64,000 bases of DNA from a virus. The position numbers were made by a program, and so were the translations under genes. Numbering within the stretch: position 1 is the stretch's first letter; each line of letters starts with the position of its first letter. Where the stretch lies: positions 1 through 64,000 of the IMG/VR virus record IMGVR_UViG_3300049855_000239; one strand, 5' to 3'. Below, piece by piece: positions 2,407-17,060 of this stretch. A model generated the notes under the pieces. It was not told the DNA's origin, did not search any database, and was given only the letters and a program-made list of their open reading frames with translations.

Positions 2407-2466
2407 GCAACTACGTATTATATATTCAAAGCTCATGGTGCCATTGCTTATACACGACCGTTAGCG
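2401..2466 (+). repeat. partial attC-like element (left TAAC arm missing), left edge of array
   Basis: TATAAGCAA...TTGCTTATA stem followed by CACGACC-GTTAGCG. Confidence 0.6.
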
Positions 2467-2700
2467 AATAGTTTTAAAACGGCAATGCGTTATTTCTTGA
2501 AGTGGCCAATCATCATCGTTATACATTCTTGTTTCACCAGTTGAGAATTTTACTTCAACATCTTCATAATTAGCTTCTGATAGTTTTTTAGAAAGCTCCT
2601 TTCTTTTTTCATCATTTACTGTATAATCAAAAACAAACCATTCGCTAACGTTGTGTTCAAGCTGTTGTGGCGTTTCTTGGGTGTTGCTATTTTTTTCCAT
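2461..2700 (-). CDS. cassette protein with hairpin-encoded leader (MEKNSNTQETPQQLEHNVSE...)
   Basis: ATG at 2700 lies inside hairpin 2643-2774; stop TAA is supplied by the GTTA arm at 2460. Confidence 0.6.
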   Translation of the reverse strand: MEKNSNTQETPQQLEHNVSEWFVFDYTVNDEKRKELSKKLSEANYEDVEVKFSTGETRMYNDDDWPLQEITHCRFKTIR

Positions 2701-2774
2701 TTTACTATCAGTTTTTCGGTGGATACATTTTCGACATTTCATGCCACAAAAGCATGAACACTTCCTTGTTATAT
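2643..2774 (+). repeat. attC-like hairpin
   Basis: CGCTAAC..GTGTTCAAGCTGTTGTGGC / GCCACAAAAGCATGAACAC..GTTATAT; central CGGTGGATA. Confidence 0.8.
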
Positions 2775-2862
2775 GCAATGCTAAAATTTCCTTCGGGATT
2801 TTCTAGCATCTTTTCTACACTAGCCACGTCTCCGTTCAGCCACCGCAAGCCCAAATGCGTGT

Positions 2863-2959
2863 CGTTAGCAGAAACTATAAACGTGGCATTTTCCAGCACC
2901 TATACGCAAGCTTCGTTCCTCAGCTATGCGCATAGCTTTAGCGTTAGCAGAAACTATAA
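2863..2959 (+). repeat. 18-bp direct repeat CGTTAGCAGAAACTATAA (2863-2880 and 2942-2959), duplicated cassette arm
   Basis: exact repeat read from sequence. Confidence 0.85.
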
Positions 2960-3287
2960 GAAACCACAGCCTTCCGATTTATAAGGTCATCGACTGTTAT
3001 TCCCAAGTAACGAGAAATAAGTACTATTTCTTCAAGGTTTGGAACTCCACCCCAATTCATCATTCGATGCTTGACATGATTTAAGAATAGATTCAACGAA
3101 CAATTCGTGGTGTGTTTGACCCTTTTCTGCTCTTTCTATTGCCTCATTGGCTTGCTGTATAGCATTAATAGTATTTGGGTGCATAATTTAATTAGTTATT
3201 TTTTTACATAGTCATGAATAAATAATAGTGTTCTGCTAACATCTAATTCTGAATTAATGTGAGTTCGTGTTACTAGTGCGTTCATAA

Positions 3288-3536
3288 TTACCAAGGAGTT
3301 TCGGGTTGATCTTCATAAATTACTATTGGATTTGGATCTAAAATTATATGCTGTTTTAGTTGTTTTACAGACCACCACTCGCCATTTAATCGGTATCGTT
3401 TAGGTGGCTGAATCTTTACTTCATGCCACCCGTACGATCTTTTTTTTCTAGTAAATGGCTTTTTGTAAATCTTTTTATCACTTCCAACTATATAATCTTT
3501 TAGCGATTCAAGTTTAAATTTCCATTTGCTATTCAT
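3288..3536 (-). CDS. hypothetical basic protein
   Basis: 82-aa ORF with a TATATTTG promoter box immediately upstream (3541-3548, minus strand). Confidence 0.6.
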   Translation of the reverse strand: MNSKWKFKLESLKDYIVGSDKKIYKKPFTRKKRSYGWHEVKIQPPKRYRLNGEWWSVKQLKQHIILDPNPIVIYEDQPETPW

Positions 3537-3654
3537 AATACAAATATACCACTTTTAACCATACATGCAAATAGATTTAGCACTTTTGGTATTTTTTTAT
3601 TCGTCAACACTAATGTTATGGGCAACCGTAGAAGCCTAGCGGTCGCCCAGTTTA

Positions 3655-4098
3655 CTAGTCGAGAATGCACCAATCTTCCGAAATACAATCGTTGACACTT
3701 GGAACCCATGTACTGACAGTTCCGTCTACATTTTTGATTGCCAAATAAGGATTGTAGTAAACTTTTCCATCTTCATCTGCAATAGACTTACCTATATCGG
3801 TAGAGAATGGATAACGATTTGCAGGGATAAAGTAAACAAACATACCTTTTCCGTTCCAACCTTTTCTAGCAACTTTTTTACCAAGTTTCAACGCTTCCAA
3901 CGCTAATCCAAACGTTAATTCACTTATGTTTCTATATGCTTTTTCAAACACATCTTTTGGACTCCATGAAATATAACCATCTTCATAAACGACTTTGTAG
4001 CCTTCTTCTCCAGCGACAACCTTTCCCGATTCATCGGAGAACTCTTTCGCATCCATTGGAGTTGCGACAATTAATTTGACACCAATATACTTTTCCAT
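3655..4098 (-). CDS. DUF2829-domain phage protein
   Basis: YIGVK...GYKVVYEDGYISWSPKDVFEKAY plus TFGLALEALKLGKKVARKGWNGKGMF...WVPSVND..EDW. Confidence 0.85.
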   Translation of the reverse strand: MEKYIGVKLIVATPMDAKEFSDESGKVVAGEEGYKVVYEDGYISWSPKDVFEKAYRNISELTFGLALEALKLGKKVARKGWNGKGMFVYFIPANRYPFSTDIGKSIADEDGKVYYNPYLAIKNVDGTVSTWVPSVNDCISEDWCILD

Positions 4099-4158
4099 TT
4101 TATTTGTTGGGTTTTATAACTCCGCCCAGAAGTTTATCGGTTGACAAAAAACGGCAGC

Positions 4159-4290
4159 CCATAACACTATATTTATGTAACAGGTGGCGTTTTTGGTTAT
4201 TTTCACTTTATTGCTCCCAGCTTATGTTTTGGCGGTGGATAGCTACGTCTTCGCTCATGCCACCTATTGCATAAATACCTAGCGTTAGCG
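4159..4290 (+). repeat. attC-like hairpin
   Basis: CCATAAC-ACTA-TATTTATGTAACAGGTGGC / GCCACCTATTGCATAAATA-CCTAGC-GTTAGCG; central CGGTGGATA. Confidence 0.85.
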
Positions 4291-4296
4291 GAAAGT

Positions 4297-4509
4297 CTAA
4301 GAAGTGACTGGTAAATCGACCGACATTGTAAAAATCGAGAATTTTCCGTTTTCTGAATGACTTTCAGCTTCTTCTCTATTTTCAAAAACTGGTAGAAATC
4401 CGTAAAGACCGCCTAGTTTATCCGAACAAGGAAGTCCAGTAATCGGATTTGTATATTCTATCATGGTTGATAATTTTGATACCATGAAAAGCTCTTTTTT
4501 GTTTGACAT
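4297..4509 (-). CDS. hypothetical cassette protein
   Basis: ORF inside segment 4284-4755. Confidence 0.6.
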   Translation of the reverse strand: MSNKKELFMVSKLSTMIEYTNPITGLPCSDKLGGLYGFLPVFENREEAESHSENGKFSIFTMSVDLPVTS

Positions 4510-4511
4510 AG

Positions 4512-4712
4512 TTAAACGATTTGAGATTCAATTATAGGTTCTTTTGTTTCATGTGGTGGATATCCACGAAACGACACCATTATCATTTTGAAGAAATGAA
4601 AGAAAATTCTAACGATTCCATTAACAACGAAATAAAGAACCATTGCGATAATGCAGTACGAGCCAACGAAGACCCAAAAACTGCTAACTGTAAATTTTAA
4701 TAATTCTAACAT
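4512..4712 (-). CDS. small membrane protein (cassette)
   Basis: hydrophobic 66-aa ORF inside segment 4284-4755. Confidence 0.6.
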   Translation of the reverse strand: MLELLKFTVSSFWVFVGSYCIIAMVLYFVVNGIVRIFFHFFKMIMVSFRGYPPHETKEPIIESQIV

Positions 4713-4748
4713 TTTGATAAATTTATACGTGAAGAAAAAAGACTATTC

Positions 4749-4878
4749 CGCTAACACTGTGCTTATGAAATTTTGGGGCTTTACTGTTTTGGATGGCGTT
4801 TTGCCCTCACGTAGTTCCCAGCGGTGGAGACTTTCGTCTCCATAAATCCCCAAATTTCAGAAGCACTTAGCGTTAGCA
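4749..4878 (+). repeat. attC-like hairpin
   Basis: CGCTAAC-ACT-GTGCTTATGAAATTTTGGGG / CCCCAAATTTCAGAAGCAC-TTAGC-GTTAGCA; central CGGTGGAGA. Confidence 0.85.
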
Positions 4879-4884
4879 GTAAAT

Positions 4885-5256
4885 TTAAGAGAGTCCAAAT
4901 ACTCTCATTAGATTACTGAATAATAATTCCTTTATTGTATCAAAATTTTCTTGCCCTTTTTTTAATGATAAATATTCTGGAGTCCAAAATCCATTATTAT
5001 TACCGTCATAAACTCTTATTTCTGTTTGTGAATATGCTATTTCAAAACATAAATTACGGTCTGGCCTCATACCATAGCTTCCAAAAACGATAGAAACCTG
5101 TTGCCCAAAATAAGAACCATCTCCATCATAGCTTATATCGCACGTTTCTAATTTAGGAAGCATTTTACTAAACTCTTCTATAAAATCAGGGTCATTACAC
5201 GGCTTTATGCCATCTATTTGTTTCCAGTTACTGATGTATTCACTTAATATTTTCAT
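4885..5256 (-). CDS. hypothetical cassette protein
   Basis: single ORF filling segment 4872-5296. Confidence 0.7.
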   Translation of the reverse strand: MKILSEYISNWKQIDGIKPCNDPDFIEEFSKMLPKLETCDISYDGDGSYFGQQVSIVFGSYGMRPDRNLCFEIAYSQTEIRVYDGNNNGFWTPEYLSLKKGQENFDTIKELLFSNLMRVFGLS

Positions 5257-5289
5257 TTTTGAATAATTTAACGGTTAAAAAAAATCTAC

Positions 5290-5420
5290 TGCTAACACTG
5301 TATTTTCGCATTTTCGGGGCTTGCTGGTAGTTCTAGCTTCACACCGTTAGGCTAGTTCACCAGCGGGGGATACAGCCGTCTTCGTCACTCCCGAAATTGC
5401 GTAAATACCGTTCGTTAGGT
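5290..5420 (+). repeat. attC-like hairpin
   Basis: TGCTAAC-ACT-GTATTTTCGCATTTTCGGG / CCCGAAATTGCGTAAATAC-CGTTC-GTTAGGT; central CGGGGGATA. Confidence 0.85.
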
Positions 5421-5426
5421 GCAATG

Positions 5427-6571
5427 CTAAGAAGGTTCTTGGATATAGCTAAGTATATGAGCAATCACATCTACTGTCCATCCATCACCCAAAAGACAAG
5501 CCGCTTCATTACGTTTTAATATGCTTGTGTACCCTTCCGGTACCGTTTGAAGCCTTTCAAGTTCTGTTTGTGTGAAATATCTCAAATCGCCATCCTGAAA
5601 TACAAAATACTCGTTATTTCGTAAAAGGCAATTAGATTTATCTTTCATCGAACGTCCTCTCCTAGTCTCGCTTGTTGGATAGCTTAAATCTACGGCTTCA
5701 TTATTTGCAATGTCTACAAAGCCTATATTGGTAGCTTCTTTTACTCTCAAATAGGTTTCCTTGTCTTTTGTAATTAATGTCGTAAAGCCACTATTAAAAA
5801 CCGATGCGCCATTTTATGTTGTTGTTTCAATGGTCGGCTTTCGCTTTCCAAAATGCAACGGCTCTTTTCCATTTGAACAAATCCACTTTCCAAAATAGAT
5901 TGTAGTTTTATTTTCTTGTCTTTTGGTTCAGGTATTCTACAATATCTAAATCCAAATAGGTCGAATGATTCCGGACCTATGTTTGTCCAATAAAATCTAT
6001 TCCTCATTTGAGCCGAAACCAATTCACTATTTATGTTCACTGGATATGTTCCCATGTACTGGCTTATCAGTTCCATATTTTTATCGGTCATGGCTACATT
6101 TTCCAATAGAAAATATTTTGGCTTTAGTGCTTTTAGAAGTCTCAAATACTCAAAAAACAATCCTGATTTTTCGCCTTGCAATCCTTTGCGTTCTTTGTTT
6201 GCTAAACTAAAATCTTGGCATGGGCTACCTCCAATTAATAAATCGATCTTTGGTAGGTTTTCAGGTTGTATATTTCTTATGTCTCCTAGCTGTATTGTAT
6301 TCGGGTAGTTGTGTTGTGTTACTTTTATTGCGTGTGCTTTTATCTCACTTGCATAGTATTGTCCGTACTTTATTCCGGCTTTATTTAAGGCAATTTGTCC
6401 GCAACTCATACCATCAAACAAAGAAAGCACTGCACCTAACACAAGCTTTGAATTATGCAAGGGTGTACTGGTTATTTGGGCTTCACACATATCAGATAAT
6501 TTTCCATAGTTTATACTTTTTGGCGGTTCAGCCTTGCACAATACAAAGCCATTGTCGTTAGTAGTAATCAT
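5427..6571 (-). pseudogene. C5 DNA cytosine methyltransferase split by a 1-nt frameshift (ORFs 5774-6571 and 5427-5750)
   Basis: motifs VLSLFDGMSCG, GGSPCQ, LLENV, RNR in first ORF; ELERLQTVP...LGDGWTVDVI in second; frames join at the T5 run 5796-5800. Confidence 0.8.
6434..6563 (+). repeat. attC-like hairpin (translated as the N-terminus of the methyltransferase ORF)
   Basis: ACCTAAC-ACAA-GCTTTGAATTATGCAAGG / CCTTGCACAATACAAAGC-CATTGTC-GTTAGTA; central GGCGGTTCA. Confidence 0.85.
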
Positions 6572-6819
6572 AAAACGTCCTCGGCATAGCCATACTTTTG
6601 AAGGTAAGGTAATAGCTTTTTGAATTGCTTTTCAGTAATTACATCTGACTTAAATAGATTGGTCATGTAGTTTCTATTTTTGCCTATTTCCCTTGAAAAT
6701 TCAGACAATGAAATAGCTGGATGCAATTGGAAGAAATTATATACGCTTTGAAATGTACGTAGGTGATCAAATATTTTATTTCCCATTTTATGCCCAATAA
6801 AAGTTAATAGCTTGTCCAT
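6568..6819 (-). CDS. small HTH-like DNA-binding protein
   Basis: ISLSEFSREIGKNRNYMTNL resembles a helix-turn-helix. Confidence 0.5.
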   Translation of the reverse strand: MDKLLTFIGHKMGNKIFDHLRTFQSVYNFFQLHPAISLSEFSREIGKNRNYMTNLFKSDVITEKQFKKLLPYLQKYGYAEDVL

Positions 6820-6932
6820 CTTTGCCTTTTCGAAGTTTTTTGTTTAGTAGGCGTTTTATTTTCTTTTTTAACTTCCTGTTTTTTCGCTTGTTTTTTGTAA
6901 GCTTACATTGTTCGCATGTGCAAATAAATATT

Positions 6933-7232
6933 TTACAAGGCATGTTTTTTGTTTTTTAGGTTATCTAGCCTTATTCTTGCGCTACCTTTTAGTGTTGCAT
7001 TTATTGTCCTAGCTTCTTCTTCTAATCTTAAAACAACAGGTTCAAGCTCATTTATTTGCTCATCTATCGTTTTGTCTGTTTTCAAAAGCAAATCTTTAGC
7101 CTTAATACATGCCAAAGCTCCTCGTGTCCATAATTTACTTTCAAAATTTTGACTTATTATTCCTTGCTTTTCAAGTTCAAGTAAGAGGATTTGCTGCCTC
7201 TTACCTGATCCTTTTGTTATAGAGTTTCGCAT
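6933..7232 (-). CDS. hypothetical protein
   Basis: ORF in segment 6557-7533. Confidence 0.55.
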   Translation of the reverse strand: MRNSITKGSGKRQQILLLELEKQGIISQNFESKLWTRGALACIKAKDLLLKTDKTIDEQINELEPVVLRLEEEARTINATLKGSARIRLDNLKNKKHAL

Positions 7233-7411
7233 AGTTCTATAAATTCCTTTTCTGGCAATCTGTTCATTAAAATTTCCAATGCAGCATCAGAAATTAAATC
7301 AGCACCATCAGATAAATTATTAGCTAGTTTTTTTATTTCCATAATCAAATCGGAAGTAGAAAGAGCGTTTAATTTGCTTATTGCGATATTTTTAAATTCT
7401 TGCGTTGTCAT
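7217..7411 (-). CDS. hypothetical protein (start MTTQEF)
   Basis: ATG preceded by TACCTTTG promoter box at ~7433-7440 on minus strand. Confidence 0.6.
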   Translation of the reverse strand: MTTQEFKNIAISKLNALSTSDLIMEIKKLANNLSDGADLISDAALEILMNRLPEKEFIELCETL

Positions 7412-7526
7412 GTCCTTGTCGTTTTGTTGAATCAAAGGTAACATAAAAATTGCAAACTGCAATATATTATTATCACAATTTGCAATATTTTTTAGTCTAC
7501 CATCAGCGGACAAAGAAAATGACTAC

Positions 7527-7579
7527 TACTAACACTGTATATACGCCATTAAAACGGGCGTATATACCTAGCGTTAGGC
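7527..7579 (+). repeat. minimal (53 bp) attC-like hairpin
   Basis: TACTAAC-ACT-GTATATACGCC-ATTAAAACG-GGCGTATATAC-CTAGC-GTTAGGC. Confidence 0.9.
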
Positions 7580-7774
7580 GATATTTTTAGAAGCCTTAAA
7601 CCGTACTAACAACTGACTAAATATCATGTCTGTATCGGTTGTTTTAACTGGAACGCTCATATGAAATGAATTACCTCCACTATGACACATTTTACTTAAC
7701 TCCTCGGTAGCAATTTTTACCAGTTCTTCATCTGGCATTTCTGCCTGTAATTGTCTAAATTCTTCTATGCTCAT
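7574..7774 (-). CDS. hypothetical cassette protein
   Basis: fills segment 7573-7821; stop codon supplied by the GTTA arm. Confidence 0.7.
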   Translation of the reverse strand: MSIEEFRQLQAEMPDEELVKIATEELSKMCHSGGNSFHMSVPVKTTDTDMIFSQLLVRFKASKNIA

Positions 7775-7814
7775 TTTGATATTGGTTACGGTTTGATAAA
7801 TAAATAAAACAATC

Positions 7815-7943
7815 GCCTAACATGATATTTAGTCATTTAAGGGCGTTCTGGGATCGGTTCTGTACTCGCATTAGTTGGCGTCCCACGGCGGATAGTTTCG
7901 TCTCTGTCACTCCCTTAAAAGCCCAAATACATGTTCGTTAGCT
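7815..7943 (+). repeat. attC-like hairpin (near-copy of 17061-17190)
   Basis: GCCTAAC-ATGATATTTAGTCATTTAAGGG / CCCTTAAAAGCCCAAATACATGTTC-GTTAGCT. Confidence 0.85.
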
Positions 7944-8016
7944 GCAACTATAATAATCACAACAACTCGACATTTATGTCAAATATACTATCTTTATACT
8001 TTATAATACTAAAGAT

Positions 8017-8862: not shown

Positions 8863-8866
8863 CTGC

Positions 8867-8996
8867 AGCTAACACAGTATTTAAGAAACCTAGGGCTATA
8901 TGAATTATTATTCATTATTCACATTTCATTAGTTTTTAGCGGTGGAGAATTTCGTCTCCGTCAATCCCTAAGTTTCTTAAATACATTGCGTTAGCG
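8867..8996 (+). repeat. attC-like hairpin
   Basis: AGCTAAC-ACA-GTATTTAAGAAACCTAGGG / CCCTAAGTTTCTTAAATAC-ATTGC-GTTAGCG; central CGGTGGAGA. Confidence 0.85.
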
Positions 8997-9632: not shown

Positions 9633-9706
9633 TTTAGTTTCTATTTTTACGGTGGAGAGTTCCGCCTCCGTCACTCCCTAGTTTTCTTGAACACCTGTCG
9701 TTATAT
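9576..9706 (+). repeat. attC-like hairpin (left ~60 bp identical to 11334-11464 element)
   Basis: CGCTAAC-ACTGTATTTGATAAATCAGGGG...CGGTGGAGA...CCTGTC-GTTATAT. Confidence 0.85.
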
Positions 9707-9735
9707 GATAGTTTAAAATAGCAGCACAAACATGT

Positions 9736-10185
9736 TTAATACTCATCAGGTGCTTTGTTTTTCCAACTACTTGAACTATTCTGCATACGCAAACCTCTTA
9801 AATATCTTGAAGCACATGCAAGTTCACACATCAAAATCCACGCTCTTTCGTTTGGAGAAGAAAAATTCTTTCGTCTTTTCATCTTGTTTTTTTCTTCCTC
9901 TGATAATGCTTCAAAAGCGACACATTCATCGTATCTACGTTCTAGTTCTTTCCAGCAGTCAATATATGGCATCCATTGCTTATGTTGAATCATTACCTTT
10001 TCAATTTGAGGTCTTAAATCAGGCAATTTTCTGAGCATCCTTACACATCGACCAACATCAGAAATATCATGCGGTACATCACATTCCCCAGTTGGTATTC
10101 CTGTAATAGCAGCAAACATTGTTTTTGAAGAAATGCCAGTATCTCTACTTGCTAACCATTCCATCCATTCTTTTTTAACTTCCAT
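9736..10185 (-). CDS. hypothetical cassette protein
   Basis: ORF filling segment 9700-10229; WL...DTGISSKT..P.D..D..RC motif recalls conserved phage hypotheticals. Confidence 0.7.
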   Translation of the reverse strand: MEVKKEWMEWLASRDTGISSKTMFAAITGIPTGECDVPHDISDVGRCVRMLRKLPDLRPQIEKVMIQHKQWMPYIDCWKELERRYDECVAFEALSEEEKNKMKRRKNFSSPNERAWILMCELACASRYLRGLRMQNSSSSWKNKAPDEY

Positions 10186-10222
10186 ATTATTAATTTATTG
10201 CGTTGTAAATAAAAAACCAATC

Positions 10223-10309
10223 ATATAACACTATGTTTCTGATATGGGCGATAAAGTACTGGTAGTTCGGAATTTCCGAATGCCCACATCAGAAACATTT
10301 ACGTTATGC
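10223..10309 (+). repeat. attC-like hairpin (87 bp)
   Basis: ATATAAC-ACT-ATGTTTCTGATATGGGC / GCCCACATCAGAAACAT-TTAC-GTTATGC. Confidence 0.85.
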
Positions 10310-10315
10310 ACAATG

Positions 10316-10582
10316 CTATAATGACGGCAATCCGAGCGAAGAACGTACTTTAGCTTCTGCCAGATTTTTGATAAAATCGCTATCTGAAAGAATCTCTTTT
10401 GCTTTTGCTGCAATCATTTCCTTGAAGTTTAATTCTTGCATTGCCTTATCTAGCCCTTCCCGTAATGCACCTTCTACACACCAATCTAATGCACTTTCAA
10501 AAGCATTTGCCTTATTGGACATAAAAGACTTTTGAAAGTATTCTGTCAATGCCCTTTGAATGTCAGGCATATGAGTTTGCAT
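10316..10582 (-). CDS. hypothetical cassette protein, possibly 5'-truncated
   Basis: ORF present but the matching TAAC arm is absent. Confidence 0.5.
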   Translation of the reverse strand: MQTHMPDIQRALTEYFQKSFMSNKANAFESALDWCVEGALREGLDKAMQELNFKEMIAAKAKEILSDSDFIKNLAEAKVRSSLGLPSL

Positions 10583-10610
10583 TATATTAGCTTCATTTGC
10601 ATTAGTTTAC

Positions 10611-10677
10611 TTTTTGTACGGTTGATACATTCGGCTTCGTTACTCCCGAAAAAGCGTGAATAAGTGTCTCGTTAGGC
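10611..10677 (+). repeat. right half of an attC-like element
   Basis: CGGTTGATAC...ACTCCCGAAAAAGCGTGAATA...C-GTTAGGC, similar to right half of 5290-5420. Confidence 0.7.
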
Positions 10678-10683
10678 GAAATA

Positions 10684-10848
10684 TTAAAAATCACCATCCT
10701 CTAACCCACGAATAACGAAACAAACGAAAGAATAGATTATTGACAAGATGCCACAAAAAAACAATACTTTCAAATGCCCTGTACTTGAAACATTAAAGCA
10801 TATAATTAACCCTAAGCCGATAATGAATAATTTGTCAATGATTTTCAT
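10684..10848 (-). CDS. small two-TM membrane protein (cassette)
   Basis: hydrophobic ORF filling segment 10671-10878. Confidence 0.55.
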   Translation of the reverse strand: MKIIDKLFIIGLGLIICFNVSSTGHLKVLFFCGILSIIYSFVCFVIRGLEDGDF

Positions 10849-10871
10849 GTTGATAAAATTAAAATACATTC

Positions 10872-11002
10872 GCCTAACACAGTACTTATAAAACTGTGGG
10901 CTTTTTTGGTTATTGTTACTTTACTGCGCTCCACTCGCTTTTTTGCGGTGGATAGTGGCGTGGTCTTAAATCCCACAGCTTTAAAAGTACGTGCCGTTAC
11001 CT
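10872..11002 (+). repeat. attC-like hairpin (near-copy of 15319-15449)
   Basis: GCCTAAC-ACA-GTACTTATAAAACTGTGGG / CCCACAGCTTTAAAAGTAC-GTGCC-GTTACCT; central CGGTGGATA. Confidence 0.85.
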
Positions 11003-11003
11003 G

Positions 11004-11390
11004 CTATTTTGCAGACGAGTACCATTCAAATTCCTCATCCATTAATTGATAAGTTGTTTTCGCTTTACCACATTGCAAATCTTTTAAATAAGCAACGCAT
11101 CTTTGTTTAGGTGTCGGTTGTTGATAATTTTCATTTTTACCATCATTTACAGGATAAACCATATAGGTTGTTGCAATATTTTCAAACCAATCAAAAAGCT
11201 TTCCACCACCTAAATCAAATAAATGTCCGAATAAGCAATTTTTACCATCTTTTGTTTTTACTATATCTGTACACCAACTTTCCTCCGTTGTATTTTCCAT
11301 GTAAGTAATAATCACATCTAAAGAAAAAACAGCAGGTAACACTGTATTTGATAAATCAGGGGCGGTATTGGCTTTGGTTGCTGTATTCAT
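11004..11390 (-). CDS. hypothetical cassette protein with hairpin-encoded leader MNTATKANTAPDLSNTVLP
   Basis: first 18 aa identical to leader of 8991-9632 although the rest is unrelated. Confidence 0.75.
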   Translation of the reverse strand: MNTATKANTAPDLSNTVLPAVFSLDVIITYMENTTEESWCTDIVKTKDGKNCLFGHLFDLGGGKLFDWFENIATTYMVYPVNDGKNENYQQPTPKQRCVAYLKDLQCGKAKTTYQLMDEEFEWYSSAK

Positions 11391-11464
11391 TTTAGTTATT
11401 GTTTTTACGGTAGATAAATTCGGCTTCGAAAAGCCCCTGTTTTCTCAAATACTTAGCGTTAGCT
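11334..11464 (+). repeat. attC-like hairpin
   Basis: AGGTAAC-ACT-GTATTTGATAAATCAGGGGC / GCCCCTGTTTTCTCAAATAC-TTAGC-GTTAGCT. Confidence 0.85.
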
Positions 11465-11465
11465 G

Positions 11466-11801
11466 CTATACTAACTGACGCCAAGTTTTACCACTATTGA
11501 ATATTGGGCTTTTTTCGTCAACTAAATTAAGCTTACCAATTAGTTCATGTGCTTGTTGTTTTGATATTTTGCATTTGCCATAATTATCGGAATCATAAAC
11601 TTTTACAAGAGTATATTCATCATTCCACTGGCTTATACTCCAGAAATTATTATCCCACAGTTTTACACATTTATCAATATCGACTTTGCAAGATACTGTA
11701 TTTGGAAATGTCAAAAGCACCTCTGTTAAAATAACAGTACAGCAGCTAACACTATGTTCTCGAACTTGTGGCGTTTTTTCAATCTTGATATTATTTTTCA
11801 T
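11466..11801 (-). CDS. hypothetical cassette protein with hairpin-encoded leader (MKNNIKIEKTPQVREHSVSC)
   Basis: no ATG inside segment 11458-11750 in this frame; nearest ATG is within the hairpin. Confidence 0.6.
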   Translation of the reverse strand: MKNNIKIEKTPQVREHSVSCCTVILTEVLLTFPNTVSCKVDIDKCVKLWDNNFWSISQWNDEYTLVKVYDSDNYGKCKISKQQAHELIGKLNLVDEKSPIFNSGKTWRQLV

Positions 11802-11875
11802 GTCATTTACATTTTTACGGGTGATACTTTCGTGGACTTTACATGCCACAACTTCGTGAACATTTAGCGTTAGTT
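11744..11875 (+). repeat. attC-like hairpin
   Basis: AGCTAAC-ACT-ATGTTCTCGAACTTGTGGC / GCCACAACTTCGTGAACAT-TTAGC-GTTAGTT. Confidence 0.85.
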
Positions 11876-12286
11876 TCAATCTTGTAAAACGAGTTCTTCG
11901 CCAACAAGAGCAAAATATAAGTTCTGTAACTGGTGTACAAATTCAATCAATCTTAAACATGTACCTCGAAACCAAAATTCATTTCCAATAAAATATATGT
12001 CATGATTTTCATCAAAATACCACATCTCGAAATCTTCTGAAATAAATCCAAACCGTTTCTTCCAGTTATTATCTAATGATATAGGGATAATTTCAACCAA
12101 ATTACCATCCTTTATATGATATTCAACATGAAGGATGTTTTCTGGATGAGCAAATATATGAACTTCATCATCTCTAATTTCGACAACATTAAAATGACAG
12201 TTAATATATTCTTCCTCTTCTAATTCTTTCTTAACTTCTTCGTTTATGAAGACAATATTCCCAAATCTTAACTCATTTACTTTCAT
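11876..12286 (-). CDS. conserved Bacteroidota phage hypothetical protein
   Basis: M..NELR.GN.V ... PI.L..... FGF ... VHQLQNLYFAL.GEEL pattern. Confidence 0.75.
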   Translation of the reverse strand: MKVNELRFGNIVFINEEVKKELEEEEYINCHFNVVEIRDDEVHIFAHPENILHVEYHIKDGNLVEIIPISLDNNWKKRFGFISEDFEMWYFDENHDIYFIGNEFWFRGTCLRLIEFVHQLQNLYFALVGEELVLQD

Positions 12287-12313
12287 GGTTTTATGGTTAC
12301 GGTTGACAAAAAA

Positions 12314-12372
12314 AAGACTAAAACTACGGTGGATTTATTCGGCTTCGAAAAGCCCCTGTTTTCTCAAATACT
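12314..12372 (+). repeat. collapsed attC-like element
   Basis: arm AAGACTAAAACTA fused directly to CGGTGGA, then TTCGGCTTCGAAAAGCCCCTGTTTTCTCAAATACT identical to 11419-11453. Confidence 0.7.
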
Positions 12373-12468
12373 CTTTAAATACAGTGCAAATGTAGCATTT
12401 AAATAATCTAAAAAAAATATTATTTTGATTTTTTATTTATCTTTTTAGTGCTTACATTTGTTCCACTA
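12372..12468. repeat. 97-bp inverted repeat copy 1, divergent promoter pair
   Basis: reverse complement of 17890-17986; TACATTTG box near each end facing outward. Confidence 0.9.
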
Positions 12469-12650
12469 CATTTGTGGCATATTAAGACAACGATTATGAC
12501 AGTAAAATTTAAAACAGTCCCTACAACCTTATTGGTTATTTTTTTAATTGACCACATAAGCCAATCATTTACAAGTCACGTTACTAATTATCCTTATTGG
12601 GTTGTTTTGATTTTGTTTATGATATATTCAAAATTTGACTAAATAAGATT

Positions 12651-13016
12651 ATGAATTTACAACTATCATTAATTAATAGGTGGTTTATAAAAACCGAAAT
12701 AGGCGAGAAATTAGAGGACTATCGGGAACTAACGCCTTATTGGTATGCTAGATTATGTTTGTATGATGGCAAAAAACAACCTAAAAGTTTTTGGGAATTT
12801 GCGCCAAGAACTAGCTTTAATTTTGATTCTAATAAAGTTACGTTTAAGAAATTCGAAGCAAACATTATGACATTAGGCTATCCTAAATCAACCGACACAG
12901 ATCGAATACTAAAATATAAACACGCTGGAATTGAAATAAGAACTGGTAATCCTAATTGGGGCGCAGAAGAAGGTAAATTATACTTTGTAATCAAGCATGG
13001 AGAAAAGATACGGTAA
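12651..13016 (+). CDS. ASCH-domain protein
   Basis: L.L.L...WF.....GEK.EDYR...PYW..RL; GY; G.P.WGAE.GK.YFVI. Confidence 0.75.
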   Translation: MNLQLSLINRWFIKTEIGEKLEDYRELTPYWYARLCLYDGKKQPKSFWEFAPRTSFNFDSNKVTFKKFEANIMTLGYPKSTDTDRILKYKHAGIEIRTGNPNWGAEEGKLYFVIKHGEKIR

Positions 13017-13635
13017 TTGCGTATGTCACAATAGATATTCTAGTTTGAATGCTAAAGGTCTATGTCCAGAAGGCGCACGTGAGCGACATAAAAAGAGTGC
13101 CGAAAGTAAAGGATTTAAAGTAAAAGAATATGGAATTGATAGAAACACCAAAACAGAGGCTATTCAGGATAAAGAGTTTAGTTTTGAAGGAAATGGAGTT
13201 AAGGGAGAAACTACTTTCAAAAAGGCCAAAATCAACCGTGTTTCTGAAAACAAGGCAAAAGAAAACGCAGAATTGGCAAGACTTAAAAAGGCAAAGATAT
13301 TAGAGTTAGGCGAAAAGTGCGAAATGTGTCCTAGACATGGAAGTGTTGATTTATTTCACATCATCGGAGTAGGGGATAAAACCCACGCTACTAATCCAAA
13401 AAACTTACTTCTTTCATGTCGCTGGTGCCATCTTATTTGGGGTGCAAACGACTTCGAAAAGATACTCAAATTCAATAATTTTGATGATATAATGAACCGA
13501 TTGAAAGATTTGGATTCTGGTAAATATTGGAAGTTTAGGCACAAGATAGAAAAGCATGTAATTGAAAAGTATTTCGAGACAAAAGACAAAACAGATATGA
13601 ATAGGCTAGGTATAAAATTTGTGAGTCCATTATGA
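12997..13635 (+). CDS. HNH-like (Zn-finger His-Me) nuclease domain protein
   Basis: CEMC...DLFHII...NLLLSCRWCH. Confidence 0.6.
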   Translation: MEKRYGNCVCHNRYSSLNAKGLCPEGARERHKKSAESKGFKVKEYGIDRNTKTEAIQDKEFSFEGNGVKGETTFKKAKINRVSENKAKENAELARLKKAKILELGEKCEMCPRHGSVDLFHIIGVGDKTHATNPKNLLLSCRWCHLIWGANDFEKILKFNNFDDIMNRLKDLDSGKYWKFRHKIEKHVIEKYFETKDKTDMNRLGIKFVSPL

Positions 13636-13958
13636 ACATTATTTTCATTTGTACTGCAAATAGGGATAGAAGCAGAACCGAAGAAATATATTTTCAAAAC
13701 AAATATCCTGAACATCGTTTTCGATCTGCTGGTATTAACAAGTATTTGAGCGAACGACACGGAGGTATTCACGTAAAAGCCTACATGTTAGATATTGCTG
13801 ACCGTATTATTTGCGCTGAACATATTCATTCTGATTGGATAGTACGAAACATAAACAAAAAGTACCTAGATAAAATATAAGTATTAGAACTGGCCGATAC
13901 TGGTACTTTTATGAGCAAAAGTTTAATAGATCGATTAGAAAGTAAGTTTAAAATATGA
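13632..13958 (+). pseudogene. low-molecular-weight protein-tyrosine-phosphatase-like gene with in-frame TAA at 13878-13880
   Basis: IIFICTANRDRSRT P-loop (CX5R), SAG motif; frame continues after the stop as VLELADTGTFMSKSLIDRLESKF. Confidence 0.7.
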
Positions 13959-14305
13959 ACCACCCAGAAAGCGACTTACAAGCAAATTGTATAAAATGGT
14001 TTAGATACCAATACCCGCAACTAAAACTATGTTTGTTTAATGTGCCAAATGGATCAAAAAGAAGCAAGTCTCAACAAGCTATACTTAAAAAGGAAGGTGC
14101 TATTTCTGGAGTTTCTGACATTATTTTATTGGTGCCAAATAGCGAGTTCAATTCTTTATGTTTAGAAGCTAAGATTAAGCCTAATAAACAATCAGAATCG
14201 CAAATTGAATTCGAAAAGGCCGTTACTAATTTTGGTAATTGTTATAAGGTATTTTACTCATTTGAAGAGTTTAGAAGTATTGTTACTAGTTATTTATCTT
14301 CTTAG
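13955..14305 (+). CDS. VRR-NUC domain nuclease
   Basis: ESDLQ..CIKWFR.QYP, VPNG, EG...GVSDI, LEAK, QS.SQ..F. Confidence 0.85.
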   Translation: MNHPESDLQANCIKWFRYQYPQLKLCLFNVPNGSKRSKSQQAILKKEGAISGVSDIILLVPNSEFNSLCLEAKIKPNKQSESQIEFEKAVTNFGNCYKVFYSFEEFRSIVTSYLSS

Positions 14306-14352
14306 TTTATACTTGCTTTAGATTTGAAGTTCATGTTTAAGAAATAGTATTA

Positions 14353-14382
14353 CCACAGCTTTATAAGTACGTGCCGTTATAA
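14353..14382 (+). repeat. right end of an attC-like element
   Basis: CCACAGCTTTATAAGTACGTGCCGTTA identical to 15420-15446. Confidence 0.75.
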
Positions 14383-14388
14383 GCCATT

Positions 14389-14760
14389 TTAAGAAGCAGA
14401 TTCATAATAAAGATTTTTACCTCCTAATTGATAGTAGCAATCAAGAAGGGATTTTTTGGCTTCTTCTTTTATCCATTCTGTCTTGTGACCTAGATATGCT
14501 ACATCAATATCTATCCATAATATTTCGGGTAGTTTAGCCCATATATTTTCATTATCTAATAACTCTTTTGCAAAACGTCCCATTCCATCCCAACTTTTAG
14601 TTTTTTCGTTGGTTTTTAATTCATCTGCACTTTTTATAGGTAATTCCAAATCCTCGCCTATATGGTTTGCTACTTTATAAATCTCAAACACTTCTTGATG
14701 TATTTGAATACAGTTTGACCTCATTGTGTCAAAATCAATTATTGGTTTTTTACTTTCCAT
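14389..14760 (-). CDS. hypothetical cassette protein
   Basis: fills segment 14376-14813. Confidence 0.7.
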   Translation of the reverse strand: MESKKPIIDFDTMRSNCIQIHQEVFEIYKVANHIGEDLELPIKSADELKTNEKTKSWDGMGRFAKELLDNENIWAKLPEILWIDIDVAYLGHKTEWIKEEAKKSLLDCYYQLGGKNLYYESAS

Positions 14761-14806
14761 GTTTTAATTAAATTAAATTGTTATAATTAGTGCAAATAAA
14801 AACGGC

Positions 14807-14936
14807 TTATAACGTTGTATTTTCGCACTTAATGGCATTCTGGTTTACATCACTTCACTTGCATTCATTCAGGCTACTACAGTGGATAAATTCGACTCTG
14901 TTCATCCATTAAATGCGTAAATAGTCTTCGTTAGGT
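14807..14936 (+). repeat. attC-like hairpin
   Basis: TTATAAC..TATTTTCGCACTTAATGG / CCATTAAATGCGTAAATA..C-GTTAGGT; central CAGTGGATA. Confidence 0.85.
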
Positions 14937-14942
14937 GAAAAA

Positions 14943-15320
14943 CTAAGAGTCAAGGCAAGTTCTAACCTTTGCTCTTAATTCAGCTCCTTTTGGGTCGTTT
15001 TCTAAATGTGAACTGACTTCTTCGAGTAAGTCAATCATTTCCTTTATCCATTTTGGATGTTCTAAAATTTCAGATTCTTTGTCTTGATAATTGTCTAATA
15101 AAATGCCCAAATTTAACGGAACTATAAAAGATCTGTCAGGTATTTTTTTAGCCACATCAGCAATTTCTTCATTTGCTCGTGTGGTATCATATCCATCATT
15201 TTCTTTTATAATTTCTTCAAGTGAGTTAAGATATTCTCTTACTTCGTTCAGTTCTTTTTCGGTGCATTTTGCGACCGTTAATTGTTTTACTACAGTTGGC
15301 ATAATCAAGAAGTTCTTCAC
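14943..15320 (-). CDS. hypothetical cassette protein
   Basis: fills segment 14930-15325. Confidence 0.7.
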   Translation of the reverse strand: MKNFLIMPTVVKQLTVAKCTEKELNEVREYLNSLEEIIKENDGYDTTRANEEIADVAKKIPDRSFIVPLNLGILLDNYQDKESEILEHPKWIKEMIDLLEEVSSHLENDPKGAELRAKVRTCLDS

Positions 15321-15449
15321 CTAACACAGTACTTATAAAACTGTGGGTTTTTTGGGTTGTTGTTACATTTTTGCGCTCCACTCACTTTTTGGCGGTGGAT
15401 AGTGGCGTGGTCATTACTCCCACAGCTTTATAAGTACGTGCCGTTAGCG
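15319..15449 (+). repeat. attC-like hairpin
   Basis: ACCTAAC-ACA-GTACTTATAAAACTGTGGG / CCCACAGCTTTATAAGTAC-GTGCC-GTTAGCG. Confidence 0.85.
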
Positions 15450-15455
15450 GAAACC

Positions 15456-15719: not shown

Positions 15720-15849
15720 GTGTCCATTTCTGGTTAACGCTTTGAATCAAATAGCAAGTGGCTTTTATTTATTCCCATCCTATTCAATCGGTTCATTTTA
15801 ATTGAGACTCCAATCTTTACATTGGCTCAAATAAAGGCTAAAAATGACA

Positions 15850-15886
15850 AAAGCCTAGATCTCGGGGGGAGCAATCTAGGCTTTTA
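15850..15886. terminator. intrinsic terminator hairpin, bidirectional A/T tails
   Basis: AAAAGCCTAGAT-CTCGGGGGGAGCA-ATCTAGGCTTTT. Confidence 0.7.
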
Positions 15887-16508: not shown

Positions 16509-16530
16509 CTCAATCATTGTCTATAACGAA

Positions 16531-17032: not shown

Positions 17033-17060
17033 AGTAAATAGGATTAAAATAAAACTTTGC

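What the first reader, a model, noticed from the sequence alone, without database searches (positions are those of the whole stretch)
2460..15325. Each gene segment is closed by its own private inverted arms: the footprint of circular intermediates
Seen: the arm opening a segment matches the arm closing the same segment, e.g. GTTATGGGCAACCGT(3615)/ACGGCAGCCCATAAC(4165), GTTAGCAGTAAATTT(4872)/AAATCTACTGCTAAC(5296), GTTAGGTGCAATGCT(5414)/AGCACTGCACCTAAC(6440), GTTAGTAGTAATCAT(6557)/ATGACTACTACTAAC(7533), GTTACCTGCTATTTT(10996)/AAAACAGCAGGTAAC(11340), GTTATAAGCCATTTT(14376)/AAAACGGCTTATAAC(14813); 16 such pairs in total. The two arms of one hairpin in the linear array generally match little beyond TAAC/GTTA. 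Inference: a fully paired site forms only when a segment plus one hairpin is circularised at G|TT, so the present order arose by shuffling. Pairing runs ~15 bp, about twice the 7-bp R box of classical attC.
Basis: seen in the sequence. Interest (0 to 1): 0.9.

Follow-up and report, generated by a model that had tools for sequence, protein, structure and literature searches.

The report
Phage gene cassettes with self-matching ends
A phage genome carries about twenty small swappable gene units whose two ends match each other, the mark left when ring-shaped units are inserted at a folding DNA site, much as in bacterial integrons but built the other way round.

Summary
All 16 of 16 segments in 2460-15325 have a left arm (GTTA + 11 nt) and a right arm (11-12 nt + TAAC) that pair at 9-10 of the 10 positions flanking position 11 (158 of 160; 0 of 20,000 permutations reach this). 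Arms on either side of one hairpin pair at chance level (4.5 of 10). Position 11 is never a Watson-Crick pair.

The window is a phage record. Positions 2.4-17.2 kb are an integron-like array of about 20 cassettes separated by 17 attC-like hairpins. Self-matching cassette ends are the textbook consequence of inserting circular cassettes at G|TT, so the principle is known. CALINs in phages are published (Qi et al. 2023).

What differs from classical integrons:
- The outer stem is 15 bp long and always interrupted at position 11.
- The hairpin lies ahead of each gene (reversed polarity, shown by linkage).
- The bulge sits on the opposite arm.
- No tyrosine recombinase was found in any of 8 viral records carrying these hairpins.

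Shuffling is supported: of 33 junction pairs sharing a cassette end, none shares the neighbouring cassette. No circle junction was seen, because only contigs were available.

Earlier notes of this scan describe the same kind of system on other phage DNA. Verdict: a real feature, and a new variant of a known kind.

The parts
2411..17187 (.). Whole cassette array: about 20 cassettes and 17 attC-like hairpins on the + strand, with nearly all cargo genes on the - strand
   Evidence: The covariance model R1 matches only inside 2635-17198 of the 72.7-kb record. ORF map. Sequence read.
2460..2649 (+). Cassette body with left arm 2460-2474 and right arm 2635-2649
   Evidence: 10 of 10 paired, A opposite C at position 11
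2650..2767 (+). attC-like hairpin (TAAC core at 2646-2649, GTTA at 2768)
   Evidence: R1 115.8 bits
2943..3240 (+). Cassette body. The left arm is duplicated at 2864 and 2943, and remnants of hairpins lie at 2800-2942
   Evidence: 10 of 10 with the right arm one base longer. Duplicate arm seen.
3615..4165 (+). Cassette body; cargo 3655-4098 (-) is Tad2-like (Thoeris anti-defence 2-like domain)
   Evidence: 9 of 10. PF11195, E = 9e-24.
4166..4283 (+). attC-like hairpin
   Evidence: R1 123.1 bits
4284..4755 (+). Cassette body; two small ORFs on the - strand
   Evidence: 10 of 10 with the right arm one base longer
4756..4871 (+). attC-like hairpin
   Evidence: R1 117.5 bits
4872..5296 (+). Cassette body; ORF 4885-5256 (-)
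   Evidence: 10 of 10
5297..5413 (+). attC-like hairpin
   Evidence: R1 121.3 bits. Fold shown.
5414..6440 (+). Cassette body; C-5 cytosine DNA methyltransferase in two frames (5427-5750 and 5774-6571, - strand)
   Evidence: 10 of 10. PF00145 on both pieces. This unit plus the hairpin to 6560 lies in a contig of run X12 with unlike flanks (record 10).
6441..6556 (+). attC-like hairpin
   Evidence: R1 90.3 bits. 90% identical to a hairpin of G005 that has different arms on both sides.
6557..7533 (+). Cassette body; four small ORFs on the - strand
   Evidence: 10 of 10
7534..7572 (+). Short attC-like hairpin
   Evidence: R1 45.1 bits
7573..7821 (+). Cassette body
   Evidence: 10 of 10 with the right arm one base longer
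7822..7936 (+). attC-like hairpin
   Evidence: R1 117.2 bits
7937..8873 (+). Cassette body; AntA-like antirepressor 8017-8862, the only cargo gene on the + strand among cassettes with intact arm pairs
   Evidence: 10 of 10. PF08346.
8874..8989 (+). attC-like hairpin
   Evidence: R1 131.5 bits
8990..9582 (+). Cassette body; ORF 8991-9674 (-) starts inside the next hairpin
   Evidence: 9 of 10. ORF list.
9583..9699 (+). attC-like hairpin; its first 30 nt after the TAAC are identical to those of hairpin 11341-11457, while the second half differs
   Evidence: R1 124.5 bits. Half-identity 1.00 against 0.60.
9700..10229 (+). Cassette body; ORF 9736-10185 (-)
   Evidence: 10 of 10 with the right arm one base longer
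10230..10302 (+). Short attC-like hairpin
   Evidence: R1 36.7 bits
10303..10670 (+). Cassette with left arm only; the right arm and first half of the hairpin are missing
   Evidence: No partner found. R1 37.2 bits over 10536-10685. The same left arm is found in G004.
10671..10878 (+). Cassette body
   Evidence: 10 of 10 with the right arm one base longer
10879..10995 (+). attC-like hairpin
   Evidence: R1 136 bits
10996..11340 (+). Cassette body; ORF 11004-11390 (-) starts inside the next hairpin
   Evidence: 10 of 10. Present with unlike flanks in run X12 (record 16).
11341..11457 (+). attC-like hairpin
   Evidence: R1 133 bits
11458..11750 (+). Cassette body
   Evidence: 10 of 10
11751..11868 (+). 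attC-like hairpin
   Evidence: R1 120.8 bits
11869..12364 (+). Cassette with a truncated right arm and a half hairpin, cut off by the block that starts at 12365
   Evidence: 93% identical over 214 nt to a cassette of G004 that has another neighbour order. Arm remnant 11 of 15.
14376..14813 (+). Cassette body, preceded by the last 23 nt of a hairpin
   Evidence: 10 of 10
14814..14929 (+). attC-like hairpin
   Evidence: R1 116.6 bits
14930..15325 (+). Cassette body
   Evidence: 10 of 10
15326..15442 (+). attC-like hairpin
   Evidence: R1 133.4 bits
15443..17067 (+). Long last segment outside the finding's range; arms pair poorly; holds an HTH gene at 16685-17032 (-)
   Evidence: 7 of 11. PF01381.
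17068..17183 (+). Last attC-like hairpin; the GTTA at 17184 is the junction with the phage backbone
   Evidence: R1 122.5 bits. No partner for the arm at 17184.

Best explanation
The region is an integron-like gene-cassette array carried by a phage.

Anatomy. Read on the + strand, one cassette is G|TTA plus an 11-nt left arm, then the cargo (genes almost always on the - strand), then an 11- or 12-nt right arm plus TAAC, then an attC-like hairpin that ends in G.

What the arms are. The two arms are the two halves of the outer stem of that cassette's own recombination site. This stem is an extended R box of 10 bp, a compulsory interruption at position 11, and 4 more bp. The halves are neighbours, and can pair, only when the cassette is closed into a ring at the four-base core.

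How the pattern arises. When such a ring is inserted at the core of another site, the stem is split. One half ends up at each end of the cargo, and each hairpin in the array is flanked by arms of two different cassettes. The self-matching ends are therefore what ring-shaped intermediates and site-specific exchange at the core would leave. The order of cassettes results from repeated excision and insertion among phages.

Shown here:
- the complementarity and its covariation;
- the energy gain on circularisation in silico;
- the linkage of each hairpin to the cargo on its left;
- different neighbours for the same cassette in other records.

Inferred:
- the ring itself;
- folding of a single strand;
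- a site-specific recombinase supplied in trans (host or co-infecting phage), because no tyrosine recombinase was found in this record.

A possible consequence, also inferred: sites in the array close with only the 4-bp core, while the excised ring has a site about 8 kcal/mol more stable. That would favour capture over loss.
For: Arm pairing in the window: 16 of 16 self pairs at 9-10 of 10, 0 of 20,000 permutations as good, same-hairpin arms at chance.

Same rule elsewhere: of 57 distinct arm pairs from the window, G004, G005 and metagenome loci, 52 pair at 8 or more of 10. The arm sequences differ between cassettes, so the pairing is kept through changes on both sides.

Interruption at position 11: 31 of 31 equal-length pairs have a non-Watson-Crick pair there (A opposite C 28, A opposite A 2, A opposite G 1). 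Another 21 pairs have one extra base in the right arm.

Hairpin architecture: TAAC/GTTA core, short asymmetric spacer, and a long stem with 19 predicted pairs, 13 of them with compensatory changes in 14 sequences. The middle is variable.

Energy: circularised sites are about 8 kcal/mol more stable than the sites as they stand in the array.

Linkage of hairpin to the right-arm side only. When exactly one arm is shared between near-identical hairpins, it is the right arm in 7 cases and the left arm in 1.

Shuffling:
- 0 of 33 junction pairs keep both neighbours.
- Contigs of runs X2, X3 and X12 hold single cassettes with unlike flanks, and joints fall at the GTTA. The tool warns that such joints in metagenomes can come from repeats.
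- One cassette is shared with G004 in another order.
- The array sits in unrelated phage backbones: G000 with DnaB and a crAss muzzle-like protein, G004 with a Mu-type portal.
- A relative of G000 lacks the whole array.

Literature:
- Exchange occurs in the AAC/GTT triplet of a folded strand (passages of PMC5027507).
- attC clusters without an integrase in virulent phages, some recombined by IntI1 (section 3.4 of PMC9892861).
Against: No tyrosine recombinase (PF00589, E <= 0.001) was found in 8 of 8 viral records with these hairpins. Two of them are rated 100% complete.

No circle junction or clean one-cassette deletion was seen. Only contigs, not reads, were available.

Of 27 pairs of near-identical hairpins, 17 share neither arm, and some hairpins are chimeras of two halves. 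This points to additional exchange inside hairpins, as homologous recombination would give. The phage encodes SSB, a Sak4-like protein and an exonuclease next to the array.

The constant 2-nt bulge lies on the arm next to the inferred exchange point, which is the opposite of the classical position of extrahelical bases.

The same arms and untranslated ends occur around different cargo genes, so the arms are not strictly tied to one gene.

The linkage tests use pairs that are not independent of each other.
Confidence: 0.72

Rival explanations
1. Cassettes are shuffled by homologous recombination between the repeated hairpins, as with the PeSL promoter/stem-loop cassettes of T4-type phages. The matching arms serve another purpose in cis, for example pairing the two ends of each cistron in the transcript or in single-stranded DNA. 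In this reading no site-specific exchange at the core is needed.
For: Chimeric hairpins and joints inside hairpins. Of 27 pairs of near-identical hairpins, 17 share neither arm. Genes for SSB, a Sak4-like annealing protein and an exonuclease lie beside the array. No recombinase in 8 of 8 records. On the coding strand, the commonest position-11 combination would be a G-U pair in RNA (28 of 31). PeSL exchanges give small circles in T4-type phages (abstract of PMC2839356).
Against: Homologous exchange does not explain why the hairpin is linked to one side only. It also does not explain why whole near-identical hairpins change partners exactly at a 4-base core, where homology is only a few bases. 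Position 11 is also A opposite A or A opposite G, or carries an extra base (24 of 52 pairs). The conserved feature is therefore an interruption, not a wobble pair. Sigma-70-type promoters and intrinsic terminators are not enriched in the array: 57 found against 63.6 expected, and 8 against 9.0. That scan does not cover Bacteroidota promoters.
Confidence: 0.15
2. The array is a piece of an ordinary bacterial chromosomal integron that the phage picked up passively, and it is now inert.
For: The sites have the general attC build. Published phage cases include fragments of chromosomal integrons (outline and section 3.4 of PMC9892861).
Against: Gene polarity and bulge position are the reverse of classical cassettes. 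The cargo includes phage counter-defence genes: a Tad2-like protein and orphan methyltransferases. The same hairpin family lies in 8 viral records and 27 metagenome stretches, with different cassette orders. One strict pattern scan of 185,579 species genomes gave a single stretch, which the model did not confirm. That one strict pattern cannot exclude bacterial copies.
Confidence: 0.05
3. Each segment is a miniature transposon with 15-bp terminal inverted repeats.
For: Each segment is bounded by inverted repeats of 15 bp.
Against: Apart from the 4-base core and positions 11 and 15, the repeats differ from segment to segment, so no common transposase-binding sequence exists. No target duplications were seen. 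Every end abuts a hairpin. No transposase was found among the ORFs scanned.
Confidence: 0.03

Closest known systems
Classical integron gene cassettes and attC sites (class 1 integrons, Vibrio chromosomal integrons)
   Same: Both have an imperfect palindromic site bounded by ...AAC and GTT..., recognised by structure rather than sequence, with a spacer, a paired stem and a variable middle. Exchange lies in the core triplet. The start of each integrated cassette belongs to the cassette's own site as it exists in the ring, so it matches the far end of the same cassette and not the neighbouring site (PMC2674596 passages; PMC5027507 passages). The original observation by Hall, Brookes and Stokes 1991 is recalled; I saw it only as reference 15 of PMC5027507.
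   Different: The outer stem is 15 bp with a compulsory interruption at position 11, instead of the 7-bp R box. Positions 5-7 are not conserved, so sites in the array close with only the 4-bp core. The hairpin lies ahead of the gene, not behind it. The bulged bases are on the other arm. No IntI and no recognisable attI were found.
CALINs (clusters of attC sites lacking an integron integrase) in phage genomes, Qi et al. 2023, PMC9892861
   Same: Both are attC-type sites and cassettes in virulent phages without an integrase, with DNA methyltransferases as frequent cargo. One case is a Flavobacteriaceae phage (Polaribacter phage P12002L). Five of six tested phage sites were recombined by IntI1 (section 3.4).
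   Different: Those clusters were reported from 2 sites upward, in 10,705 phage genomes of the NCBI Genome database. Here there are 17 sites and about 20 cassettes over 15 kb. The matching ends, their length, the interruption and the reversed polarity are not described in the parts I read (abstract, section 3.4, passages). Supplements could not be seen. P12002L gives only weak matches to my model (E = 0.024 and 0.032, flanking methyltransferase gp54).
PeSL regulatory cassettes of T4-type phages (Arbiol et al. 2010, PMC2839356; PMC4122927 seen in a search listing only)
   Same: Both are repeated structured intergenic elements in hyperplastic regions of phage genomes, with modular shuffling of small accessory genes and small circular DNAs (abstract).
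   Different: PeSLs are promoter plus terminator units exchanged by homologous recombination. They have no four-base core, and cassette-specific matching ends are not mentioned in the abstract I read. Here the promoter/terminator scan shows no enrichment.
Integron-like cassette arrays of Bacteroidota phages noted earlier in this scan (AI notes)
   Same: Hairpin-first cassettes with a TAAC...GTTA core, complementary ends per cassette, methyltransferase cargo, and flavobacterial phages.
   Different: Several of those notes place a small Xer-like tyrosine recombinase beside the array. For the hairpin family of this window I found none in 8 of 8 viral records.

Membership tests
Integron gene cassette / attC site | Imperfect palindrome bounded by an inverse core ending in AAC and a core starting with GTT, 57-141 bp long | tested here: met
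   17 sites on the + strand with TAAC...GTTA. Full-size ones span 124-126 nt core to core; short ones span 47 and 81 nt.
Integron gene cassette / attC site | Conserved fold rather than sequence: paired boxes, unpaired central spacer, variable terminal structure | tested here: met
   19 predicted pairs, 13 with compensatory changes in 14 sequences. Spacer of 4 nt against 6-7 nt. Variable middle of about 70 nt.
Integron gene cassette / attC site | The start of an integrated cassette derives from its own site, so the cassette start is complementary to the inverse core at the cassette's own end | tested here: met
   16 of 16 in the window. 52 of 57 distinct pairs family-wide.
Integron gene cassette / attC site | R box of 7 bp with consensus RYYYAAC / GTTRRRY, conserved enough that sites in the array remain paired | tested here: not met
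   Beyond the 4-base core the arms of one hairpin pair at chance (4.5 of 10). The cassette's own stem is 15 bp with an interruption.
Integron gene cassette / attC site | Extrahelical bases on the L''/GTT arm of the recombined strand, opposite the cleaved AAC arm | tested here: not met
   The only constant asymmetry is a 2-nt bulge next to GTTA on the + strand. Linkage puts the exchange at that same junction. If cleavage is at AA|C, the bulge is on the cleaved arm. The rule is taken from PMC5027507.
Integron gene cassette / attC site | Gene followed by its attC on the same strand (promoterless gene read from the platform promoter) | tested here: not met
   The hairpin stays with the cargo whose 5' end faces it. 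Several ORFs start inside that hairpin.
Complete integron | Integron integrase (tyrosine recombinase with the IntI-specific insert) and attI beside the array | tested here: not met
   No PF00589 match in G000 (72.7 kb, rated 69% complete) or in G001-G005, G009 and G010. The record may be incomplete.
CALIN (cluster of attC sites lacking an integrase) | Two or more attC sites, as called by IntegronFinder's attC model, with no integron integrase nearby | not testable with these tools
   IntegronFinder and its model were not on hand. By my own model there are 17 sites and no integrase. Rfam holds nothing that matches.
Integron gene cassette / attC site | Recombination by an integron integrase at G|TT of a folded single strand | not testable with these tools
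   Needs a recombination assay. Published only for other phage-borne sites (PMC9892861).
PeSL-type regulatory cassette | Strong sigma-70-like promoter plus stem-loop terminator in each repeat | tested here: inconclusive
   No enrichment of either in 2400-18100. The scan does not cover Bacteroidota promoter types.

The most novel reading that the evidence does not exclude
This would be a phage-specific counterpart of the integron, not a borrowed bacterial one. It would be a library of counter-defence genes kept as hairpin-first cassettes, exchanged among unrelated flavobacterial phages by an enzyme that is not an integron integrase and acts in trans. The 15-bp interrupted closure stem would be complete only in the excised ring. 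The ring would then be a far better substrate than the sites in the array, giving a built-in ratchet that favours capture of cassettes over their loss.
Probability: 0.35. Interest if true: 0.8.

Novelty: new variant of a known kind. Interest (0 to 1): 0.55.

Why it matters
Arm pairing is kept through changes on both sides in 52 of 57 different arm pairs. This is comparative evidence that the closed-ring form of a cassette, or an equivalent fold, is a state under selection. That is hard to show for classical integrons, whose R boxes are nearly uniform.

The array also shows that phages can keep a sizeable, reshuffled store of counter-defence genes: a Tad2-like protein and orphan methyltransferases. 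This mirrors the stores of defence genes reported in bacterial chromosomal integrons (title and abstract of bioRxiv 10.1101/2024.07.02.601686, seen in a search listing).

The reversed polarity, the mirrored bulge and the lack of an integrase make the identity of the recombinase a concrete, testable question. The exact cassette borders give primers and substrates for that test.

Tried and rejected
Chance or base composition as the cause of arm pairing: rejected by permutation and by non-self pairs.

Known RNA families: a permissive Rfam scan of 1-20000 gave one sub-threshold glmS match only.

Pattern scans:
- A loose DNA pattern in viral contigs gave 118 or more stretches. None of the 80 loci that I gave to the model was confirmed.
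- A strict pattern gave 5 viral records, all confirmed.
- A wider pattern gave 20 stretches. Of the 15 new ones, 2 were confirmed.
- The single scan of species genomes gave one stretch, in a Cohnella MAG, which the model did not match.

I therefore could not search Flavobacteriia genomes or the long metagenome contigs for hairpins beside a recombinase.

Search for a recombinase:
- Ten large ORFs next to hairpins in metagenome loci gave no recombinase.
- A crude motif flag picked four ORFs. The one in L139 is covered by the PF00589 search of G005, and L169:149-1180 was scanned and is a C-5 DNA methylase. The ORFs in L145 and L163 were not scanned.

HNH/NinG-like nuclease as a fixed partner of arrays: rejected. 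G000 and G004 share one (36% identity), but 4 of 5 other records lack it, among them the complete G009.

My first reading, from the bulge side, that the + strand is the recombined strand and gene polarity is classical: rejected after the linkage tests.

Cultured phages: blastn of 8800-15500 found only short cargo matches in Flavobacterium and Cellulophaga phages. P12002L gave weak model matches.

Junction reads: all runs found are kept as contigs, so starts, ends and rare ring junctions cannot be seen. Parts of the stretch without cover in runs X2, X3 and X12 are no evidence.

Literature: searches found no description of 15-bp cassette-specific stems, a fixed interruption, or reversed polarity in phage arrays. 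Supplementary files of PMC9892861 were closed and may list sites that bear on this.

Full report
WHAT THE WINDOW IS

The window is the first 64,000 bases of an IMG/VR virus record of 72,698 bases, rated 69% complete.

To the right of 18 kb lie phage replication and recombination genes: SSB, an AAA_24/Sak4-like protein, an exonuclease, a helicase-methylase, a replication initiator, a DnaB-like helicase and a dCTP deaminase. Structural genes follow, among them one with a crAss muzzle-like domain and a tail collar domain.

Short DNA matches of cargo genes are to Flavobacterium and Cellulophaga phages, so a Flavobacteriaceae host is likely but not shown.

THE OBSERVATION

I defined a left arm as GTTA plus the next 11 bases, and a right arm as the 11 (or 12) bases before TAAC plus TAAC.

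Results for the 16 segments inside 2460-15325:
- All 16 have arms that pair at 9 or 10 of the 10 positions flanking position 11. The total is 158 of 160.
- Eleven pair best or equally well with arms of equal length.
- Five pair best when the right arm has one extra base at the interruption.
- Dealing the right arms at random among the left arms gave 84.1 +/- 6.6, maximum 119, in 20,000 trials. None reached 158.
- The arms on the two sides of one hairpin pair at 4.5 of 10, which is chance.

An earlier count in a fixed register gave the same picture: self 9.1 of 11, 336 non-self pairs 4.5 +/- 1.4 with maximum 8.

Seven further left arms have no intact partner. They lie at degenerate or truncated sites, or at the edge of the array.

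THE SITES BETWEEN THE SEGMENTS

Fourteen full-size sites align well. They share a TAAC...GTTA core, a short asymmetric spacer (4 nt on the TAAC side, 6-7 nt on the GTTA side), and a long stem of 19 predicted pairs, 13 of them with compensatory changes. The middle is variable and holds a conserved motif.

A covariance model built from them finds 17 sites on the + strand between 2635 and 17198. It finds nothing elsewhere in the 72.7-kb record.

This is the build of integron attC sites as described in PMC5027507 (passages): an R box with the AAC/GTT triplet, an unpaired spacer, a paired box and a variable terminal structure. Rfam has no family that matches.

WHY THE ENDS MATCH

In integrons the exchange lies inside the core triplet. 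The first bases of an integrated cassette therefore come from the cassette's own site as it exists in the ring. PMC2674596 defines the cassette and 'its' attC in exactly this way (passages). That the cassette start matches the inverse core at the cassette's own end, and that this pointed to circular cassettes, is an old observation of Hall, Brookes and Stokes (1991). I recall that paper; here I saw it only as a reference.

When I joined each right arm and hairpin to the left arm of the same segment, the predicted fold gained a continuous outer stem. The mean energy fell from -18.3 to -26.0 kcal/mol on the + strand and from -19.4 to -28.1 on the - strand (15 sites, DNA parameters).

WHAT IS NOT CLASSICAL

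1. The stem is 15 bp, not 7, and it is always interrupted at position 11. Among 57 distinct arm pairs collected by coordinates from the window, G004, G005 and metagenome loci, 52 pair at 8 or more of 10.
- 31 have equal arms with a non-Watson-Crick pair at position 11: A opposite C 28, A opposite A 2, A opposite G 1.
- 21 have one extra base in the right arm.
- Since A opposite A, A opposite G and extra bases all occur, the conserved feature is an interruption one helical turn from the core. It is not a G-U or G-T wobble.

2. Positions 5 to 7 of the core region vary between cassettes, so a site in the array closes with only the four-base core.

3. Polarity. I first read the + strand as the recombined (bottom) strand, because the only constant bulge (2 nt) lies on its GTTA arm, where classical extrahelical bases lie. 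Linkage says otherwise. I used 84 hairpins with 60-nt flanks.
- Hairpins next to a shared right-arm end are more alike than background: mean identity 0.73 against 0.575, Mann-Whitney p = 6e-7, 22 pairs.
- Hairpins next to a shared left-arm end are not: 0.566, p = 0.79, 11 pairs.
- Among 27 pairs of near-identical hairpins, 7 share only the right arm, 1 only the left arm, 2 both and 17 neither.
- The pairs are not independent, so the p values are rough.
Because the genes are on the - strand, the hairpin lies ahead of its gene.
- Several ORFs indeed start inside the hairpin and read through the right arm. The methyltransferase frame at 5774-6571 likewise runs through the right arm and the hairpin; its Pfam match begins at residue 48, near position 6430.
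- Either the gene orientation or the bulge side is thus the mirror image of the classical rule.

EVIDENCE FOR SHUFFLING

The same hairpin family occurs in other records:
- five other viral records found with a strict pattern, G001-G005;
- two more, G009 and G010;
- 27 metagenome stretches.

The backbones differ. G004 (41.6 kb, rated complete) has a Mu-type portal and a Terminase_3, unlike G000.

The arm rule holds in these records too.

Neighbours are not conserved:
- Of 33 junction pairs that share a cassette end on one side, none shares the cassette on the other side.
- One cassette (window 11869-12300) is 93% identical over 214 nt to a cassette of G004 with other neighbours.
- Contigs of three other metagenome runs from other studies hold single cassettes at 90-99% identity with unlike flanks. 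Examples are 5413-6560 (cargo, right arm and hairpin) and 10995-11339 (arm to arm). Joints fall at the GTTA, with 4 and 9 shared letters. The tool warns that joints in metagenomes at this likeness can come from repeats, so I use them only as support.
- A relative of G000 (71% identity in the AAA_24-like protein) has 2.8 kb where G000 has 16.8 kb, and no hairpins. The whole array is accessory.

WHAT SPEAKS AGAINST A PURE INTEGRON MECHANISM

- No tyrosine recombinase was found in 8 of 8 viral records with these hairpins, two of them rated complete, nor in three relatives found through the AAA_24-like protein.
- Most near-identical hairpins have different arms on both sides, and some hairpins are chimeras. 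Exchange inside hairpins, probably homologous, therefore goes on as well. The phage has the genes for it next to the array.
- The same arms and untranslated ends enclose different genes in the window and in G005.
- I saw no ring junction, because all runs are held as contigs.

CARGO

- A Tad2-like protein at 3655-4098.
- A C-5 DNA methyltransferase in two frames at 5427-6571.
- An AntA-like antirepressor at 8017-8862, on the + strand.
- An HTH protein at 16685-17032.
- Many small ORFs without a Pfam match.
- G004 carries three N6_N4 methyltransferases in cassettes.

This fits a store of counter-defence genes. It agrees with the methyltransferase cargo reported for phage CALINs (PMC9892861, section 3.4).

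COMPARISON WITH WHAT IS KNOWN

Clusters of attC sites without an integrase in virulent phages are published. Five of six tested sites were recombined by IntI1 (PMC9892861; abstract, section 3.4 and passages). One is from a Polaribacter phage. That genome gives only weak matches to my model, on both sides of a methyltransferase gene.

PeSL cassettes of T4-type phages are the closest phage-specific analogue for shuffling and mini-circles (abstract of PMC2839356). They are promoter-terminator units, and my scan shows no enrichment of such signals here.

Earlier AI notes of this scan describe the same kind of hairpin-first arrays in many Bacteroidota phages, some beside a small Xer-like recombinase. 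I tested that lead for this hairpin family and found no such gene.

VERDICT

The principle is already known from integrons, and phage CALINs are in print.

In the papers and searches I could see (supplements closed), the following appear new:
- the 15-bp cassette-specific stem with a fixed interruption;
- the reversed polarity;
- the size of the array;
- its occurrence without any recombinase in complete phage genomes.

I class it as a new variant of a known kind, with interest 0.55.

Noticed in passing
window 12372-12468 and 17890-17986: A perfect 97-nt inverted repeat encloses 5.4 kb that holds part of the array. It may allow inversion, may be a duplicated promoter region, or may leave the orientation of the enclosed segment unresolved in the assembly. 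A contig of the source run, by its length, ends about 6 nt before the left copy.
   Followed up: partly
window 12365-14352: A block of + strand genes interrupts the array between remnants of two different hairpins, so it is not a simple insertion. It holds a 121-aa ORF, an HNH/NinG-like nuclease at 12997-13635, and ORFs of 82 and 116 aa. The nuclease has a homologue in G004 (36% identity) but not in 4 of 5 other records.
   Followed up: partly
window 5427-6571: The C-5 methyltransferase cassette is split into two frames in the window. Contigs of three other metagenome runs carry one extra A behind 5795, while the source run does not, so the gene may be frameshifted in this phage.
   Followed up: partly
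window 3589-4955: In the source run, the contigs covering three cassettes have depths of 6-13, against about 20.6 for the flanks. Other contigs of that run leave the sequence at 3864, 4104 and 4135. This hints at variant cargo in these slots within one sample. Contig depth is a weak measure.
   Followed up: no
window 3615-4165 and L139 (reverse complement) 8660-9014: The same arm pair and about 50 nt of conserved sequence inside each arm enclose a Tad2-like gene in the window and an unrelated shorter ORF in G005. Cargo can be replaced inside a constant frame.
   Followed up: partly
window 9583-9699 and 11341-11457: Two hairpins share an identical first half. ORFs 8991-9674 and 11004-11390 start inside it, so two different proteins begin with the same residues. 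Other first-stage notes on this genome say the same.
   Followed up: no
window 4135-4150, 5268-5281, 7785-7805, 12297-12313: A short conserved motif followed by an A-run lies just inside several right arms, that is, upstream of the - strand start codons. It may be an expression signal or part of the site.
   Followed up: no
window 8017-8862: The AntA-like antirepressor is the only cargo gene on the + strand among cassettes with intact arm pairs. It is the one cassette with classical gene-then-hairpin order.
   Followed up: no
L169:149-2171: In one metagenome stretch, hairpins of this family lie next to a complete restriction-modification pair (C-5 methylase plus a BsuBI/PstI-type endonuclease).
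   Followed up: no
L173 7166-10001 against window 2068-18893: A related phage record has 2.8 kb and no hairpins where this phage has the 15-kb array.
   Followed up: partly
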